From the human T2T-CHM13v2.0 reference genome, Homo sapiens, in NCBI GenBank assembly GCA_009914755.4, contig CP086569.2, forward strand, positions 61,984,001-62,048,000: DNA of 64,000 nt, read 5' to 3'. The notes below the pieces were generated by a model that did not search any database, was not told where the DNA came from, and worked only from the letters and a program-made list of their open reading frames with translations. Positions 1 to 64,000 of the stretch are shown here, one piece after another. The translations under genes were made by a program, and so were the position numbers. Position 1 is the stretch's first letter; the number at the start of each line of letters is the position of its first letter.

Positions 1-151
1 AGTGCAATGGAACGGAATGGAATAGAATGCAATGGAGTGGAATGGAATGGAATGGAATGGAATGGGATGGAATGGTATGGAATGGATAGTAATGGACTGG
101 AGTGAAATGGACTGGAAAGGAATGGACTCAAATTGAAAGGGCTCGAAAGGA

Positions 152-3100
152 ATGGAGTCAAATGGAATGATCTGGAATGGAATGAACTCGAATGTAATGC
201 AATCCAATAGAATGGAAACAAATGGAATGGAATTGAATGGAATGGAATTGAATGGAATGGGAACGAATGGAGTGAAATTGTATGGAATAGAAGAGAATAG
301 AATGGAATGCAAGGGAAAGGAAAGGAATGGATTGGAATGGAATGGAATTCATTGGAATGGAAGGGAATGTAGTGTAATGGACAGGCCTGGAATAAACTGG
401 AATGCTACGGTCCGGAATGGAATAAAAATGTATGGAATGGAATGCAATGAAACGGAATCGAATGTCATAGAATGTAATGGAATGCAAAAAAATGGACTCC
501 AAAATCATTGACTGGAAAGGCTGGGTGTCGAAAGGAATTGACTCCAATGGAATGGAATCGAATGGAATGGAAGTGAATAGAATCGAACTAAATCGAATGG
601 AATGGAATTGATAGGAACGGAATGGAAAGGAATGGAATGATTTGGCATGGAATGGAATCGAATGGCATCGAATGGAATGGAATGGAATGCAATGGAATGG
701 AATGTATTAGAATGTAATGAACTTTAATGGGATGTACTCGAATGGATTCGACTGGAATGGAATGTTCTGGAAGTGAATGGACTCCAATGGAATGGATTCG
801 AAAGGAATGGAATCGAACGGTATGGAATCTAATGGAATGGAATTAAATGGAAAGGAATGAAATGGAATAGAACGGAATTGAATTGAATGGAATCGAATGC
901 AATGGAATCTAATGAAACGGAAAGGAAATGAATGGAATGGAATGGAATGGGCTGGAATGGAATGGAATCGAAACGAATGGAATGGAATCGAACTGCAGAG
1001 ACTGCCATGGAATGTACTGGAATGCAAGGGAGAGTAATGGAAGGTTCTCGAAAAGAATGGAAACGAATGGAATGGAATTGAATGGAACGGAATAGAGTCG
1101 AATGGAATTGAATGGAATGGAATGGACTAGAGTGAAATGGAATCGAGTCACAAGGAATGGACAGGAATAGAATGGTCTCGAATTGAATGGAATCGTATGG
1201 AATGGCATCAAACGGAATGGAATGGACAGCCACGGAATGGAATGCACTCGAATGCAATGGAGTCGAAACTATTGGTCTGGAATAGAATGGACTCGACTGG
1301 TACGGACTCCAATGGAATGGAATGGAATGGAAGGGAATCGAACGGAATGGACTCGAAGTGAAAAGACTGCAACGGAAAGGTTTCGAATGGAATGGAAATT
1401 AATGGAATGGAATGGAATCGAATGAAATGGAGTCAAAAGGAATGGAATCCAATGGCAAGGAATCGAATGTAATGGAATCGCAAGGAATGGATGTGAACGG
1501 AACGGAATGGAATGGAATCAAAAGGAATGGAATAGAATGGAATGGAATCGAATGGAAAGGACTCGAATGGAAATCACTTGAATAGAATGAAATTTAATAA
1601 AATAGGATCAAATGTAATGGAATGGAATGGAAAGGAATCGAAACGAAAGGAATGGAGACAGATGGAATGGAATGGAAGAGACCGCAATGGTATAGAATGG
1701 AATGGAATCATCTGCAATGGAATTGAATGGAATGGAATAATATGATATGGAATGGAATGGAACGGAAAGCCCTTGAATTAAATGGACTGGAATGGAATGG
1801 ACTGGAACAGAGTGGAATGGAAAGTGTTGAAATAGAATGGAATGGACTCCTTTGGAATGGTCTAGTATGCAAGGCAATCGACTGGCAGGGAATCAAAAGG
1901 AATGTAATCGAATGGATTGGACTGGAATGCAATGGACTCGAATAGATAGGAAACGGAATGCAAAGGAATGGAATTGAATAGTATGGAATGGAATGGAATG
2001 GAAGGAATGGAGTGAAATAGACTAGAGTGGAATGGAATGGACTCGAAAGCAATGGACTGGAATGGAACTTTCTTGAATGGACTGGAATCAAACGGAATGG
2101 AATGCAATGCAATCAAATGGCATGGAATAAAATAGAATGAAAGAGAATCAAATGGAATTGAATCGAATGGAATCGAATGGATTGGAAAGGAATAGAATGG
2201 AATGGAATGGAACTGACTCAAATGGAATGGACTGGAATGAAATGGAGTCGAAAGGAAGGCAAAGGAATAGAATCTATTGGAATGGACTGTAATGGAATGG
2301 AATGGAAGGGATTGGAATGGACTCGAATGGAATGGACTGCAATAGAAAGGATTCGAATGGAATGAAAAAGAATTGAATGGAATAGAACAGAATGGAATCA
2401 AATCGAATGTAACGGAATGGAATTGAAAGGAATGGAATGAAATGGAATGGAAAGGATTCGAATGGAATGCAATCGAAGGGAATGCAATCGAATGGAATGG
2501 AATCGAACAGAATGGAATAAAATGGAAGAAAACTGGCAAGAAATGGAATCGAAATGAATGCAGTGTTATGGAACGGACTCAAAAGGAATTGAATGTAATA
2601 GAATGGAGTGGAGTGGACTCGAATATTATGGACTGGAATGGAATGGAATCACATGGAATGGGAACGAATGGAATGGAATGGAAAGGAAAGGAATCGAATG
2701 GAAAGGAATCGAATGGAAGGGAAGGAAATTGAATCAACAGGAATGGAAGGGAATAGAATAGACTGTAATGGAATGGACTCGAATAGAATGGACACGAATG
2801 CTCAAATTGAACGGACTCGTATAGAATGGAAATGAAAGGAATGTCATCGAATGGAATTGAATCGATTGGAATGAAATCGCATAGAATGGAGTGGAATCAA
2901 ATGGAATTGAATCGAAAGCAAAGGAAGCGAATGGACTGAAATGAAATGGAATGGAATTGAATGGAAAGTAATGCAATGGAATGGAATGGAACGAAATTTC
3001 AGGGAATGGAATCAAACAGAATGGAATCAAATCAATGGAATCTAATCAAAAGGAATGGATAGGAATTAAAAGGAATAGATTCGATTGGAAGGGATTGGAA

Positions 3101-3659
3101 TGCAATGGAATGGGAAGGACACGAATTTCATGAAACGGAATGGAATGGACTCGAATGGAATGGAATGTCATGGAATGGCATCAAATGGAATGGCATCAAA
3201 TGGAATGGAATCGAATGCAATGGAATGTTATGGAATGGAATGGGATGCAGTGGAATGAAATGTCCTCTAATGGAATGGATTCGAGTGGAATGGAATCGAA
3301 TATAATGGAGTCGAATGAAATGGAATTGAAAGGAATGGGATCGAATAGAATGGAATATACTGGAATGTAATGTAATGAAGTCGAATGTAATTGACTGGAA
3401 TGGAATGTACGTGAATGGAATGTAATCGAATGGAAAGTAATCCAATGGAATAGAATCTAATGCAATAAAATCGACTCGAATGGAATGGAATGGAATGGAA
3501 TGGAATGCAGTGCAGTGGAACGGAATGGAATGGAATTCAATGGAGTGGAATGGAATGGAATGGAATGGAATGGGATGGAATGGTTTGGAATGGATAGTAA
3601 TGGACTGGAGTGAAATGGACTGGAAAGGAATGGACTCAAATTGAAAGGGCTCGAAAGGA
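152..3659 (+). repeat. HSat3 HOR copy 1 (3508 bp)
   Basis: Boundary set at the recurring motif atggagtcaaatggaatgatctggaatgg. About 98% identical to the other copies, judged from the 119-aa repeat-derived ORF having ~5 differences between copies. Confidence 0.8.
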
Positions 3660-62715: not shown

Positions 62716-62719
62716 ACAA

Positions 62720-63028
62720 GGCCTGGTGTTGTGGGTCACACCTGTAATCCTAGCAGTTTGGGAGGCCTAGGCAGGGGAATCACTTGAGGTCAAAAGTTTG
62801 AGACCAGCCTGGACAACATTGTGAAACTCCATCTCTACTAAAAATACAAACATTAGCCAGGTGTGGTGGTGCGCACCTGTAATCCCAGCTAGTTGGGAGG
62901 CTGAGGCAGGAGAATCACTTGAACCCAAGAGGTGGAAGCTGCAGTGACCCAAGATCGCACCACTGCACTCCAGCCTGGGCTGCAGACTAGTAAGACTGTG
63001 TTTAAAAAAGAAAAAAAACAAAAAACAA
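62720..63028 (+). mobile_element. Alu (AluS-like) at the 5' edge of duplicated segment copy 2
   Basis: ggcctggtgttgtgggtcacacctgtaatcctagcagtttgggaggcctaggcaggggaatcacttgaggtcaaaagtttgagaccagcctggacaacattgtgaaactccatctctactaaaaatacaaa ... with an A-rich tail. Confidence 0.85.
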
Positions 63029-64000
63029 ATGAAGAATCAGTAAATACTGCAATAGGCAGGCTTCAAATAGCTTACCATCTTCTATCGATCATAGAGAAAT
63101 AATCCTTCTCTCTGGGATGTATAGTTTTGAAATAGTCTAGAAGAAAAACACAATAGGTTTAAGAGTAACATGGGGCAAGTTAAAATAATGATAATACCCA
63201 CCATTACTACATGATTTAACAGGAAAAGTATGGACGTTGAAGTCACTCATATGTAGATTCAAACCTCAAGTCTGCCATTTACTTATCTACAGATTCACAT
63301 GGCATGATGGTTATGATTGGTGAGACAGATATTTTCAAAATGTTACTCCTTTCAACCCCAGTTGATTATTATACAAATACTATGATATCCATTAGTTTCT
63401 TTTATTAGCCACAACAAACTAGGACAAAAATGTACCCTATGTAATTTAGAGTATTAGCGAATAAAACTAATAATAAAAAAGTAAATCACATTATTTTTCA
63501 AAATAGCTATGAATGGTGTATATTTGTGCAAATTTCATTTTGTGGGAAAAAATGTGAGAATGTAGTTTTTAGTAGTACTATATTTAAATGGGTTGGCATC
63601 AGAAACAGTACAAGTTGCTTCTATTCAGTGTGTCAAAAGCTAAAAACAAATTATAGTATAACTTAAGCTCCTTCCAAAAAAGACAGAACAAAGCAACCAT
63701 CCACCTTACGGAGCAATGATTCATGAATGAAGGCCACACATAGCTACTAAATAGAAAGCTGTAACTAAGTATCCTGACAATAGAAACAGAAGTGAAATGA
63801 AAGAATAGACACTAAAGACATGTGGGCTGCAAGGAGAAAGTTAGACTGAGGTAAATCATTTTTAAAGAAAGGGGAAGGAGGGAGAAACAAACAAAAAAAG
63901 AGACATGACCAGTCAATCAAATATGAGCTTAAAAGAAGACCTTGTGTTCATAATATATGCTTAATAATACTGGTTAGCATTTACTCGACAATTTGTTTTG
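63029..64000 (+). repeat. Duplicated unique segment, copy 2 (runs to the window end)
   Basis: Aligns with 57628-58600. The extent beyond the window is unknown. Confidence 0.8.

What the first reader, a model, noticed from the sequence alone, without database searches (positions are those of the whole stretch)
1..64000. Window is human heterochromatin and its edge, most likely Yq12 (DYZ1 then DYZ2 then flanking sequence), not a prokaryotic locus
Three features co-occur: (GGAAT)n HSat3 in a 3.5-kb higher-order repeat, a directly adjacent array of a 2.4-kb AT-rich repeat with an embedded ancient Alu, and L1/AluY elements in the flank. Alternating blocks of a ~3.56-kb HSat3 repeat (DYZ1) and a ~2.4-kb AT-rich/Alu repeat (DYZ2 / HSat1B) are the defining architecture of human Yq12. 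Every ORF in the supplied track over 1-41.8 kb is an artefact of translating these repeats (WNGME-type and Y/I/N-rich peptides). The interest lies in catching both a DYZ1/DYZ2 junction and the array-to-non-satellite edge in one window.
Basis: partly seen in the sequence, partly recalled or inferred. Interest (0 to 1): 0.55.

Follow-up and report, generated by a model that had tools for sequence, protein, structure and literature searches.

The report
Human Y heterochromatin (DYZ1/DYZ2) edge
This window is ordinary, well-described human Y-chromosome long-arm satellite DNA (a DYZ1 block, then a small diverged DYZ2 block, then retroelement-rich non-coding DNA), not a bacterial locus, and it contains no real genes.

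Summary

**DYZ1 (1-18118).** This is (GGAAT)n with a 3.50-3.54 kb higher-order repeat. Each unit has one HaeIII site and one copy of the published Y-specific HSat3A6 24-mer. The markers of the other 13 HSat2/3 subfamilies are all absent. The Yq12 STS sY160 maps once per unit. GC (38.8%) and CpG density (1 per 35 bp) equal the published DYZ1 values.

**DYZ2 / HSat1B (18119-41788).** This stretch holds 9.9 units of a 2.38-2.41 kb repeat with three parts: a 290-nt 5'-truncated old Alu, a 566-nt GC-richer part and a 1.5-kb part that is 87% AT. That anatomy is the published DYZ2. All units differ from the canonical 2,420-bp unit, which I recovered from contaminated "bacterial" contigs. Core identity is 97% for units 1-2 and 93-94% for units 3-10. 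Published work reports such divergence for arrays at the ends of Yq12.

**Flank (41789-64000).** It is CpG-depleted non-coding DNA with a 5'-inverted L1, five Alus and old low-copy tandem duplications.

The ORFs in the satellites are translation artefacts. The chromosomal position, most likely the distal Yq12 edge, could not be aligned directly. All of this is already known, so interest is low.

The parts
1..18118 (.). DYZ1 / HSat3A6 array: (GGAAT)n on the + strand, 5.2 units of a 3.50-3.54 kb higher-order repeat. HaeIII sites lie at 384, 3892, 7388, 10887, 14431 and 17964.
   Evidence: TRF. Period. One GGCC per unit. HSat3A6 24-mer at 1623, 5129, 8627, 12126 and 15655, with no hits for the 13 other subfamily markers. 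sY160 sites. GC 38.8% and 1 CpG per 35 bp. Units 95.9-97.8% identical to each other.
18109..18128 (.). DYZ1/DYZ2 junction. DYZ1 homology ends after ...CGAAAGGAAT (18118). The AT-rich part of a DYZ2 unit begins at 18119.
   Evidence: Sequence read directly and compared with the same phase of unit 1 at about 520-545.
18119..41788 (.). DYZ2 / HSat1B array: 9.9 units of 2380-2414 bp. On the + strand each unit is AT-rich (about 1.53 kb, 86-88% AT), then a reverse-oriented Alu (290-292 nt), then a GC-richer 'HSATI' part (566 nt).
   Evidence: Period. Anatomy. GC 23.6% and 1 CpG per 148 bp. Identity to the canonical 2,420-bp DYZ2 unit L004 is 89-94% over the full length and 93-97.7% over the core.
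18829..23629 (.). DYZ2 units 1-2, the subtype nearer to canonical. They have ACATACG at the HSATI/AT-rich boundary (19686, 22099) and 2.1-kb HaeIII fragments.
23630..41788 (.). DYZ2 units 3-10, a diverged subtype. They have 23 fixed differences from units 1-2 in the 898-column core, lack ACATACG, and give 1.87-2.0 kb HaeIII fragments. Their core is 93-94% identical to bulk DYZ2.
40358..40647 (-). One example of the 10 Alu-derived subunits. The others are at 18829-19119, 21242-21533, 23630-23920, 26014-26303, 28405-28694, 30801-31091, 33194-33484, 35589-35879 and 37969-38259.
   Evidence: blastn against an AluY consensus: consensus positions 12/13-288, 73-77% identity. Lengths.
41778..41789 (.). 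DYZ2/flank junction, lying within a few bases of ambiguous microhomology (ATG(T)AACT).
   Evidence: Alignment of the window with the paralogous contigs L001-L003, which continue into unrelated 39% GC sequence instead of DYZ2.
41789..64000 (.). Non-satellite flank: 34.5% GC, CpG observed/expected 0.23, no protein domains other than L1.
   Evidence: Six-frame Pfam scan found nothing.
41789..43211 (.). Member of a repeat family of about 1.88 kb that is tandem in other loci (L001). A 97-98% identical paralogue (L002, L003) lacks the DYZ2 junction.
43237..53356 (.). About 2.3 copies of an old, degenerate tandem duplication. The unit is about 3.4 kb and copies are 70-79% identical. The copies are interrupted by the L1 and two Alus.
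   Evidence: Self-blastn offsets. The repeat finder families D7-D20.
45309..46396 (-). Inverted 5' part of a truncated L1. It includes ORF2p residues 698-829.
   Evidence: phmmer against PDB L1 ORF2p, E = 1e-63. Weak RVT_1 match. Sequence.
46397..47339 (+). Sense 3' part of the same L1: the ORF2p C-terminus (residues 1195-1273 at 46875-47117), the 3' UTR and a decayed A-rich tail. The layout is typical of a 5'-inverted ('twin-priming') L1.
   Evidence: phmmer against PDB, E = 7e-36. Sequence.
51986..52273 (+). Alu, AluY/Sc-like, 91% identical to AluY.
52578..52863 (-). Alu, AluY/Sc-like, 90% identical to AluY. It forms an inverted pair with the previous Alu (85% complementary, 297-nt spacer).
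55755..56033 (+). Alu, AluY/Sc-like, 89.6% identical to AluY.
57288..58595 (.). First copy of a duplication with a 5.41-kb offset. It includes an old Alu at 57311-57601. The second copy, 62698-64000 (Alu at 62720-62986), is 87% identical and runs off the window.

Best explanation
The window is constitutive heterochromatin from the long arm of the human Y chromosome (Yq12). It holds the end of a DYZ1 (HSat3A6) array, then a small 23.7-kb DYZ2 (HSat1B) array, then ordinary retroelement-bearing non-coding DNA. Nothing in it is a prokaryotic gene. The ORFs over the satellites arise only because a 5-bp or AT-rich repeat rarely produces stop codons in some frames.

How it 'works' is inferred from established satellite biology and from the cited Y assemblies. 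These arrays expand, contract and homogenise by unequal sister-chromatid exchange and gene conversion. That process is most active in the array interior. Units at array edges and at the ends of Yq12 therefore escape homogenisation and drift apart.

The window shows that signature directly:
- DYZ1 units become less alike towards the junction.
- The two DYZ2 units next to DYZ1 are 97% identical to the bulk type.
- The eight DYZ2 units nearer the flank form a separate subtype, 93-94% identical to bulk.

The DYZ2 array ends inside its AT-rich segment. It abuts a sequence whose 97-98% paralogue elsewhere continues uninterrupted.

The most likely position is the distal (PAR2-side) end of the DYZ arrays. 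On the proximal side, Yq12 is reported to be bounded by DYZ18-type arrays rather than by non-satellite DNA.
For: DYZ1:
- Pentamer array with a 3.5-kb higher-order repeat.
- One HaeIII site per unit, giving 3496-3544-bp fragments, the classical male-specific HaeIII band.
- Published HSat3A6 24-mer once per unit, and none of the 13 other subfamily markers.
- HSat3A6 is described as Y-specific in CHM13v2.0.
- sY160 gives a predicted 235 bp against 236 bp published.
- GC 38.8% and 1 CpG per 35 bp, against published 38% and 1 per 35.

DYZ2:
- Alu 290-292 nt (published 290 +/- 2).
- HSATI part 566 nt up to the ACATACG motif (published 566 +/- 16).
- AT-rich part 86-88% AT (published above 85%).
- GC 23.6% and 1 CpG per 148 bp (published 24% and 1 per 150).
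- Homology to a collapsed 2,420-bp canonical unit, L004.

Edge position:
- Unit lengths of 2380-2414 bp, where 93.7% of Yq12 units are 2,420 bp.
- 3-7% core divergence from bulk.
- Hallast et al. report the most diverged DYZ2 units at the Yq12 boundaries. They also report a structurally distinct distal section next to PAR2 and DYZ18-type arrays on the proximal side.

Mammalian flank: CpG observed/expected 0.23, L1 and Alus.
Against: - No human genome was available, so there is no direct alignment to chrY.
- HSat1B also occurs on acrocentric short arms and chr10. Y 'end-array' DYZ2 is reported to be closer to the acrocentric type. The diverged units 3-10 alone therefore do not discriminate.
- Only one HSat3A6 24-mer could be tested, because the stored supplement was cut before the 3A6 list.
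- Altemose's chromosome-sorting model predicted a minor HSat3A6 signal on chr7.
- The sY160 forward primer matches with a 1-nt deletion.
- The distal-versus-proximal assignment rests on published descriptions, not on sequence comparison.
Confidence: 0.9

Rival explanations
1. The window comes from a human acrocentric short arm (13p, 14p, 15p, 21p or 22p) or from chr10, where HSat3 and HSat1B also occur near each other and near non-satellite DNA.
For: HSat1B is present on the acrocentrics and on chr10, and HSat3 is present on acrocentric short arms. Window DYZ2 units 3-10 are 6-7% diverged from bulk Y DYZ2. Y end-array DYZ2 and acrocentric DYZ2 are reported to be similar. A 97-98% paralogue of the flank exists elsewhere in human-derived DNA.
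Against: The HSat3 here carries the HSat3A6 marker in every unit. It carries none of the acrocentric markers (A1, A2, A4, A5, B2-B5). It has the 3.5-kb DYZ1 repeat with one HaeIII site per unit and the sY160 STS. HSat3A6 is described as Y-specific.
Confidence: 0.05
2. The contig is an assembly chimera. Real DYZ1, DYZ2 and unrelated human DNA were joined wrongly, so the two junctions are not biological.
For: Yq12 is among the hardest regions to assemble. The flank has a close paralogue without the DYZ2 junction. No reads are available to check.
Against: Both junctions fall inside the AT-rich part of DYZ2. The arrays also show a graded pattern: DYZ1 units diverge towards the junction, and the DYZ2 subtype changes two units in. 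A random mis-join of bulk units, which are 99.5% identical to each other, would not produce that. A short DYZ2 block of about 20 kb is within the published range.
Confidence: 0.03
3. The sequence is from a non-human great ape, not from human.
For: Satellite families and Alu/L1 are shared among apes. No species label is available.
Against: There are exact matches to markers derived from human reads and to human STS primers. DYZ2 units 1-2 are 97% identical to the HSat1B contaminating bacterial assemblies, which is presumably human laboratory DNA. The ape sex-chromosome paper highlights other satellites on non-human Ys, for example HSat1A in gorilla, and does not mention HSat1B or HSat3.
Confidence: 0.02

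Closest known systems
DYZ1 (HSat3 subfamily A6), human Yq12
   Same: GGAAT pentamer base, a higher-order repeat of about 3.5 kb, a single HaeIII site per unit, the HSat3A6-specific 24-mer, the sY160 STS, 38.8% GC and 1 CpG per 35 bp.
   Different: Units are 3496-3544 bp, against a published mean of 3,543 bp and the 3,564-bp clone. They are only 96-98% identical to each other, whereas most Yq12 units are reported to be over 98% identical to the consensus. That fits a peripheral block.
DYZ2 (HSat1B), human Yq12, canonical 2,420-bp unit
   Same: Three-part unit: a 5'-truncated Alu of about 290 nt, an HSATI part of 566 nt and an AT-rich simple-repeat part of about 1.5 kb. 23.6% GC. Directly adjacent to DYZ1.
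   Different: No unit has the modal 2,420-bp length (they are 2380-2414 bp). Full-length identity to the canonical unit is 94% (unit 1) down to 89-90% (units 3-9). The ACATACG motif and the 2.1-kb HaeIII fragment are kept only in the two units next to DYZ1. Two subtypes occur within one 24-kb array.
HSat1B arrays of the acrocentric short arms
   Same: Same repeat family. They are reported to resemble the Y 'end arrays' more than the central Y arrays.
   Different: They are not reported next to HSat3A6. The HSat3 here lacks every acrocentric subfamily marker that was tested.
5'-inverted (twin-priming) L1 insertions and Alu insertions in primate intergenic DNA
   Same: The flank L1 has an inverted ORF2 segment directly upstream of the sense 3' end with an A-rich tail. 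The Alus are full length with A-tails.
   Different: Nothing unusual. L1 and Alu subfamilies were not assigned rigorously, and target-site duplications were not examined.

Membership tests
DYZ1 / HSat3A6 | Array built on the (GGAAT)n/(CATTC)n pentamer | tested here: met
   TRF finds period 5/10/15 arrays over 6-18064. Sequence read directly.
DYZ1 / HSat3A6 | Higher-order repeat of about 3.5-3.6 kb, released as a single fragment by HaeIII | tested here: met
   k-mer spacing mode 3499. One GGCC per unit, giving fragments of 3508, 3496, 3499, 3544 and 3533 bp. Published sizes.
DYZ1 / HSat3A6 | Carries HSat3A6-specific 24-mers and not those of other HSat2/3 subfamilies (Altemose 2014, Table 1) | tested here: met
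   TCGTTTCGATTCCTTTCCATTCCA occurs 5 times, once per unit. The other 13 markers give 0 hits. Only the single top marker per subfamily could be tested.
DYZ1 / HSat3A6 | Contains the Yq12 heterochromatin STS sY160 (236 bp) | tested here: met
   The forward primer matches once in five of the six unit positions, with a 1-nt deletion. The reverse primer is exact at 14668-14687 and has 1 mismatch in four other units. Predicted product 235 bp.
DYZ1 / HSat3A6 | Composition: about 38% GC, about 1 CpG per 35 bp | tested here: met
   38.8% GC and 1 CpG per 35 bp, against Hallast et al..
DYZ1 / HSat3A6 | Male-specific, physically located on Yq12 | not testable with these tools
   No human genome or read set is available. 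Y-specificity is taken from the literature.
DYZ2 / HSat1B | Tandem unit of about 2.4 kb (modal 2,420 bp) | tested here: inconclusive
   Units are 2414, 2387, 2383, 2391, 2397, 2393, 2395, 2380 and 2388 bp. They are in the 2.4-kb class, but none has the modal length that 93.7% of Yq12 units have.
DYZ2 / HSat1B | Three-part unit: AT-rich simple repeat (above 85% AT), a 5'-truncated Alu of about 290 nt (about 20% diverged) and an HSATI part of about 566 nt | tested here: met
   Alu 290-292 nt, starting at consensus position 12/13, 73-77% identical to AluY. 566 nt from the Alu head to ACATACG in units 1-2. AT-rich parts 86-88% AT. Published values.
DYZ2 / HSat1B | Sequence homology to canonical DYZ2 | tested here: met
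   L004 is a collapsed 2,420-bp unit with ACATACG at position 567 and 24.2% GC. The 16 HSat1B contigs have a median identity of about 99.5% to one another; three are divergent (96-98%). Window core identity to them is 97-97.7% (units 1-2) and 93-94% (units 3-10). Full-length identity is 89-94%.
DYZ2 / HSat1B | ACATACG at the HSATI/AT-rich boundary, and a classical HaeIII fragment of about 2.1 kb | tested here: inconclusive
   Present in units 1-2 only (19686 and 22099; fragments of 2139 and 2115 bp). Units 3-10 lack the motif and give fragments of 1873-1999 bp.
Yq12 architecture | DYZ1 and DYZ2 arrays directly adjacent and alternating | tested here: met
   One direct DYZ1/DYZ2 junction at 18118/18119. 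Alternation beyond one junction cannot be seen in 64 kb.
Distal edge of the Yq12 DYZ arrays | Flank equals the structurally distinct segment between the last DYZ array and PAR2 | not testable with these tools
   Inferred from Hallast et al.: DYZ18-type arrays lie on the proximal side, the distal section is distinct, and the most diverged DYZ2 units lie distally.
LINE-1 | Homology to L1 ORF2p | tested here: met
   E = 1e-63 (residues 698-829, minus strand) and E = 7e-36 (residues 1195-1273, plus strand) against PDB L1 ORF2p.
Pentapeptide-repeat or extensin-like proteins (considered for the satellite ORFs) | Score at or above the Pfam gathering threshold | tested here: not met
   Pentapeptide_4 scores 18-27 bits against a cutoff of 38. 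Extensin_1 scores 28-29 bits against a cutoff of 105. These are periodicity artefacts of translating a 5-bp repeat.

The most novel reading that the evidence does not exclude
The window may capture a junction that records how HSat1B was seeded on the Y. A small, old DYZ2 array made of two subtypes ends inside its AT-rich segment. It cuts into a pre-existing repeat family of about 1.88 kb whose 97-98% paralogue elsewhere in the genome is uninterrupted. If the flank is not the reference distal Yq12 segment, the window would instead be a non-reference structural configuration, such as an island inside Yq12 or a translocated block.
Probability: 0.06. Interest if true: 0.3.

Novelty: already known. 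Interest (0 to 1): 0.08.

Why it matters
There is little biological news here. The DYZ1/DYZ2 organisation of Yq12, unit divergence towards array ends and the tripartite DYZ2 unit are all published (Rhie 2023, Hallast 2023 and later work).

The value is practical:
- The window should be removed from any prokaryotic or viral scan.
- Its ORFs should not be sent to protein searches.
- Translated pentamer satellite gives sub-threshold 'pentapeptide repeat' hits that could mislead automatic annotation.
- The same satellite is visibly present as contamination in deposited bacterial genome assemblies.

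Tried and rejected
- **Rfam at gathering thresholds:** nothing found. At E-value thresholds only Alu-derived sub-threshold hits appeared (Metazoa_SRP, mir-1268, mir-3135).
- **Classical DYZ1 sexing primers recalled from memory** (TCCACTTTATTCCAGGCCTGTCC / TTGAATGGAATGGGAACGAATGG): they match once per unit and predict a 154-bp product. I could not find them in the paper library. 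They are therefore a lead only; the cited evidence uses the HSat3A6 24-mer and sY160.
- **Source of the window:** two window ORFs are not on record in the gene-position collection. The DYZ2/flank junction 40-mer is absent from genome contigs. It is present only in three short metagenome contigs, which turned out to be paralogues without DYZ2.
- **Independent DYZ1 copies:** a viral-contig scan for the HSat3A6 24-mer found none.
- **Homology of DYZ2 to the flank:** none outside the Alu part, so there is no sign that DYZ2 derives from the flank repeat.
- **Genes in the flank:** a six-frame Pfam scan on both strands found no domains, so no pseudogene is available to anchor the location.
- **Literature on Y euchromatin/heterochromatin transition regions:** the phrase searches found nothing, and a paper I recalled on this topic could not be retrieved by DOI.
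- **The ape sex-chromosome paper:** it does not discuss HSat1B or HSat3.
- **The full list of HSat3A6 24-mers:** not in the stored part of the supplement.
- **Rejected reading, real pentapeptide-repeat proteins:** the scores are below threshold, and the ORFs overlap on both strands and recur every 3.5 kb.

Full report
**Observation.** The composition profile divides the window into three blocks:
- 1-18 kb: 38-40% GC with a strong G-over-C skew.
- 18-42 kb: 20-27% GC.
- 42-64 kb: 31-38% GC.

Tandem Repeats Finder reports a (GGAAT)n-type array over 6-18064 and only weak AT-rich simple repeats between 19.7 and 40.3 kb. Spacing of exact 24-mers gives a higher-order period of about 3.5 kb in the first block (mode 3499). 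The second block has a period of about 2.39 kb (modes 2393, 2395, 2397). The exact junctions are 18118/18119 and 41778-41789.

**DYZ1.** I tested the HSat3 block against published, sequence-level criteria.

- *Subfamily marker.* Altemose et al. 2014 (PMC4022460, Table 1) list the commonest subfamily-specific 24-mer for each of 14 HSat2/3 subfamilies. The HSat3A6 marker occurs exactly once per 3.5-kb unit, five times in all. The other 13 markers have no hit. The absent markers include those for chr9 (B5), chr15 (A5), chr1 (B2, 2A2) and the acrocentric A4. HSat3A6 is the subfamily that corresponds to DYZ1. It is called Y-specific in an analysis of the complete CHM13v2.0 genome.
- *STS sY160.* This Yq12 heterochromatin STS (PMC11059631, Table 1, 236 bp) maps to the same phase of each unit. 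The forward primer matches with a one-base deletion. The reverse primer is exact in one unit and one mismatch off in four others. The predicted product is 235 bp.
- *HaeIII digest.* An in-silico digest cuts once per unit and yields fragments of 3496-3544 bp, the classical male-specific band.
- *Composition.* GC is 38.8% and CpG density is 1 per 35 bp. These are the values Hallast et al. give for DYZ1.
- *Recalled primers.* Two classical DYZ1 sexing primers that I recalled from memory also match once per unit with a 154-bp spacing. I could not confirm them in the library, so I treat them only as a lead.

**DYZ2.** On the + strand each of the ten units has three parts:
- an AT-rich stretch of about 1.53 kb (86-88% AT);
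- a reverse-oriented Alu-derived segment of 290-292 nt, which lacks the first 12 consensus positions and is 73-77% identical to AluY;
- a 566-nt GC-richer segment.

These match the published DYZ2 description. The Alu is 290 +/- 2 bp and about 20% diverged, the HSATI part is 566 +/- 16 bp, the AT-rich part is above 85% AT, and an ACATACG motif sits at the HSATI/AT-rich boundary. GC is 23.6% and CpG density is 1 per 148 bp, against published values of 24% and 1 per 150.

To obtain an independent reference, I scanned the bacterial and archaeal genome collection with a 27-mer that is invariant in all ten units. Sixteen 'bacterial' contigs carry it. The T2T-Y paper reports this kind of HSat1B contamination. 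Most of these contigs are about 99.5% identical to one another; three are more divergent (96-98%). One of them, L004, is 2,497 nt with a 77-nt terminal overlap. It is therefore a collapsed unit of exactly 2,420 bp, the canonical DYZ2 length. It has ACATACG at position 567 and 24.2% GC.

**An edge-type block.** Against this bulk type, window units 1-2 are 97-97.7% identical in the Alu+HSATI core. Units 3-10 are 93-94% identical. Over the full length the values are 94.4% and 92.7% for units 1-2 and 89-90% for units 3-9.

- Units 3-10 form their own subtype, with 23 fixed differences from units 1-2.
- They lack ACATACG and give shorter major HaeIII fragments of 1.87-2.0 kb, against 2.1 kb for units 1-2.
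- No unit has the modal 2,420-bp length.
- The DYZ1 units are 95.9-97.8% identical to one another, with the two units nearest the junction the most divergent.

Rhie et al. state that most units are over 98% identical to the consensus, with more divergence in peripheral blocks. Hallast et al. report several related points:
- The most diverged DYZ2 units lie at the Yq12 boundaries. [quoted passage not shown]
- The end arrays have a different composition from the central arrays.
- The distal section next to PAR2 is structurally distinct.
- The proximal side is bounded by DYZ18, 3.1-kb and 2.7-kb arrays.

A 23.7-kb DYZ2 block is at the low end of the published size range. Taken together, this fits a terminal DYZ1-DYZ2 pair at the distal edge of the DYZ arrays. 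That placement is an inference and was not aligned.

**Flank.** The region 41789-64000 has a CpG observed/expected ratio of 0.23.

- *L1.* A truncated L1 has an inverted upstream segment (45309-46396, minus strand; ORF2p residues 698-829, E = 1e-63). Next to it lies the sense 3' end (46397-47339; ORF2p residues 1195-1273, E = 7e-36) with a decayed A-rich tail.
- *Alus.* Three are AluY/Sc-like at about 90% identity to AluY (51986-52273 +, 52578-52863 -, 55755-56033 +). Two are older, at about 80% (57311-57601 + and 62720-62986 +).
- *Coding content.* A six-frame Pfam scan of both strands found no domain.
- *Old duplications.* The flank is not simple unique DNA. Self-alignment shows about 2.3 copies of an old tandem duplication of about 3.4 kb (43237-53356, 70-79% identity). 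A second duplication has a 5.41-kb offset (57288-58595 against 62698-64000, 87% identity) and includes one of the old Alus.
- *Paralogues.* The first 1.4 kb of the flank belongs to a repeat family of about 1.88 kb that is tandem in a metagenome contig (L001). Two other contigs (L002, L003) are 97-98% identical to 41778-44086. Where the window has DYZ2, they continue into unrelated 39% GC sequence. The flank therefore has a close paralogue elsewhere, and the DYZ2 array ends at a true breakpoint.
- *No link to DYZ2.* Outside its Alu part, DYZ2 has no homology to the flank.

**ORFs.** Long ORFs over 1-18 kb occur on both strands, overlap one another and recur every 3.5 kb. Their only Pfam matches are well below the curated cutoffs: Pentapeptide_4 at 18-27 bits (cutoff 38) and Extensin_1 at 28-29 bits (cutoff 105). 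This is what the five-residue periodicity of a translated 5-bp repeat would produce.

**Rivals.**
- An acrocentric or chr10 HSat1B/HSat3 junction is the main alternative, because HSat1B occurs there and Y end arrays resemble the acrocentric type. The HSat3 here is A6 by marker, repeat length, HaeIII pattern and sY160, and it lacks all acrocentric markers.
- An assembly chimera cannot be excluded without reads. The graded divergence towards both junctions argues against a random mis-join of bulk units.
- A non-human ape origin is unlikely, given the exact matches to human-derived markers.

**Mechanism.** The sequence shows directly that units near the array ends are less homogenised than the bulk. 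It also shows two DYZ2 subtypes in blocks and array ends that lie inside the AT-rich segment. From the literature on these arrays I infer the following: expansion, contraction and homogenisation occur by unequal sister-chromatid exchange and gene conversion, these act mainly in array interiors, and edge units drift. There is no evidence of any coding or RNA gene.

**Verdict.** Conditional on that, I put about 0.6-0.7 on the distal edge. The content is already known, and interest is low (0.08).

Noticed in passing
L004-L019 (genome-contig hits); L009 = NZ_HF570958.1, locus positions about 5.6-7.0 kb: Sixteen deposited 'bacterial' genome contigs (Mycobacterium, Bifidobacterium, Streptomyces, Azospirillum and others) carry human HSat1B/DYZ2. 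In one case about 1.2 kb of 35-38% GC satellite sits inside a 5.16-Mb, roughly 70% GC Nostocoides japonicum scaffold. L004 is a collapsed 2,420-bp DYZ2 unit with a 77-nt terminal overlap.
   Followed up: partly
window 1-18118, e.g. ORFs 15740-16615(-), 5214-6041(-), 3128-3820(-): Translated pentamer satellite gives sub-threshold Pfam hits to Pentapeptide_4 and Extensin_1. This is a periodicity artefact that could mislead automatic annotation of contaminated assemblies.
   Followed up: yes
window 18829-23629 versus 23630-41788: The 24-kb DYZ2 array contains two subtypes in blocks. Units 1-2 have ACATACG and 2.1-kb HaeIII fragments and are 97% identical to bulk DYZ2. Units 3-10 have 23 fixed core differences, give 1.87-2.0 kb HaeIII fragments and are 93-94% identical to bulk.
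   Followed up: yes
window 41778-44086; L001-L003: The flank has a 97-98% identical paralogue in metagenome contigs (presumably host DNA). Where the window has DYZ2, the paralogue continues into unrelated sequence, and it has an extra segment of at least 160 nt near window position 44066-44086. L001 shows the same segment as a tandem repeat of about 1.88 kb (82% between copies). L001 and L002 share an identical 450-nt upstream stretch although they differ downstream.
   Followed up: partly
window 43237-53356 and 57288-58595 / 62698-64000: There are old low-copy tandem duplications in the 'non-satellite' flank. One has a unit of about 3.4 kb, about 2.3 copies and 70-79% identity. The other has a 5.41-kb offset and 87% identity, includes an old Alu and therefore post-dates that Alu's insertion.
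   Followed up: partly
window 45147-45303 and 47342-47501: The roughly 157 nt immediately left and right of the L1 insertion are 72% identical to each other, and both align to a single segment in the next repeat copy (50746-50903). They are too long and too diverged to be an ordinary target-site duplication. Unexplained.
   Followed up: no
window 51987-52276 / 52574-52863: An inverted pair of AluY/Sc-like elements, 85% complementary with a 297-nt spacer. This is a potential long hairpin.
   Followed up: no
window 52119-52170, 52680-52731, 55880-55931, 57444-57495, 62854-62905; 57512-57571, 62922-62981: Sub-threshold Rfam hits to mir-1268 and mir-3135 fall inside Alus. They reflect the Alu origin of those miRNA families and are not miRNA genes.
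   Followed up: yes
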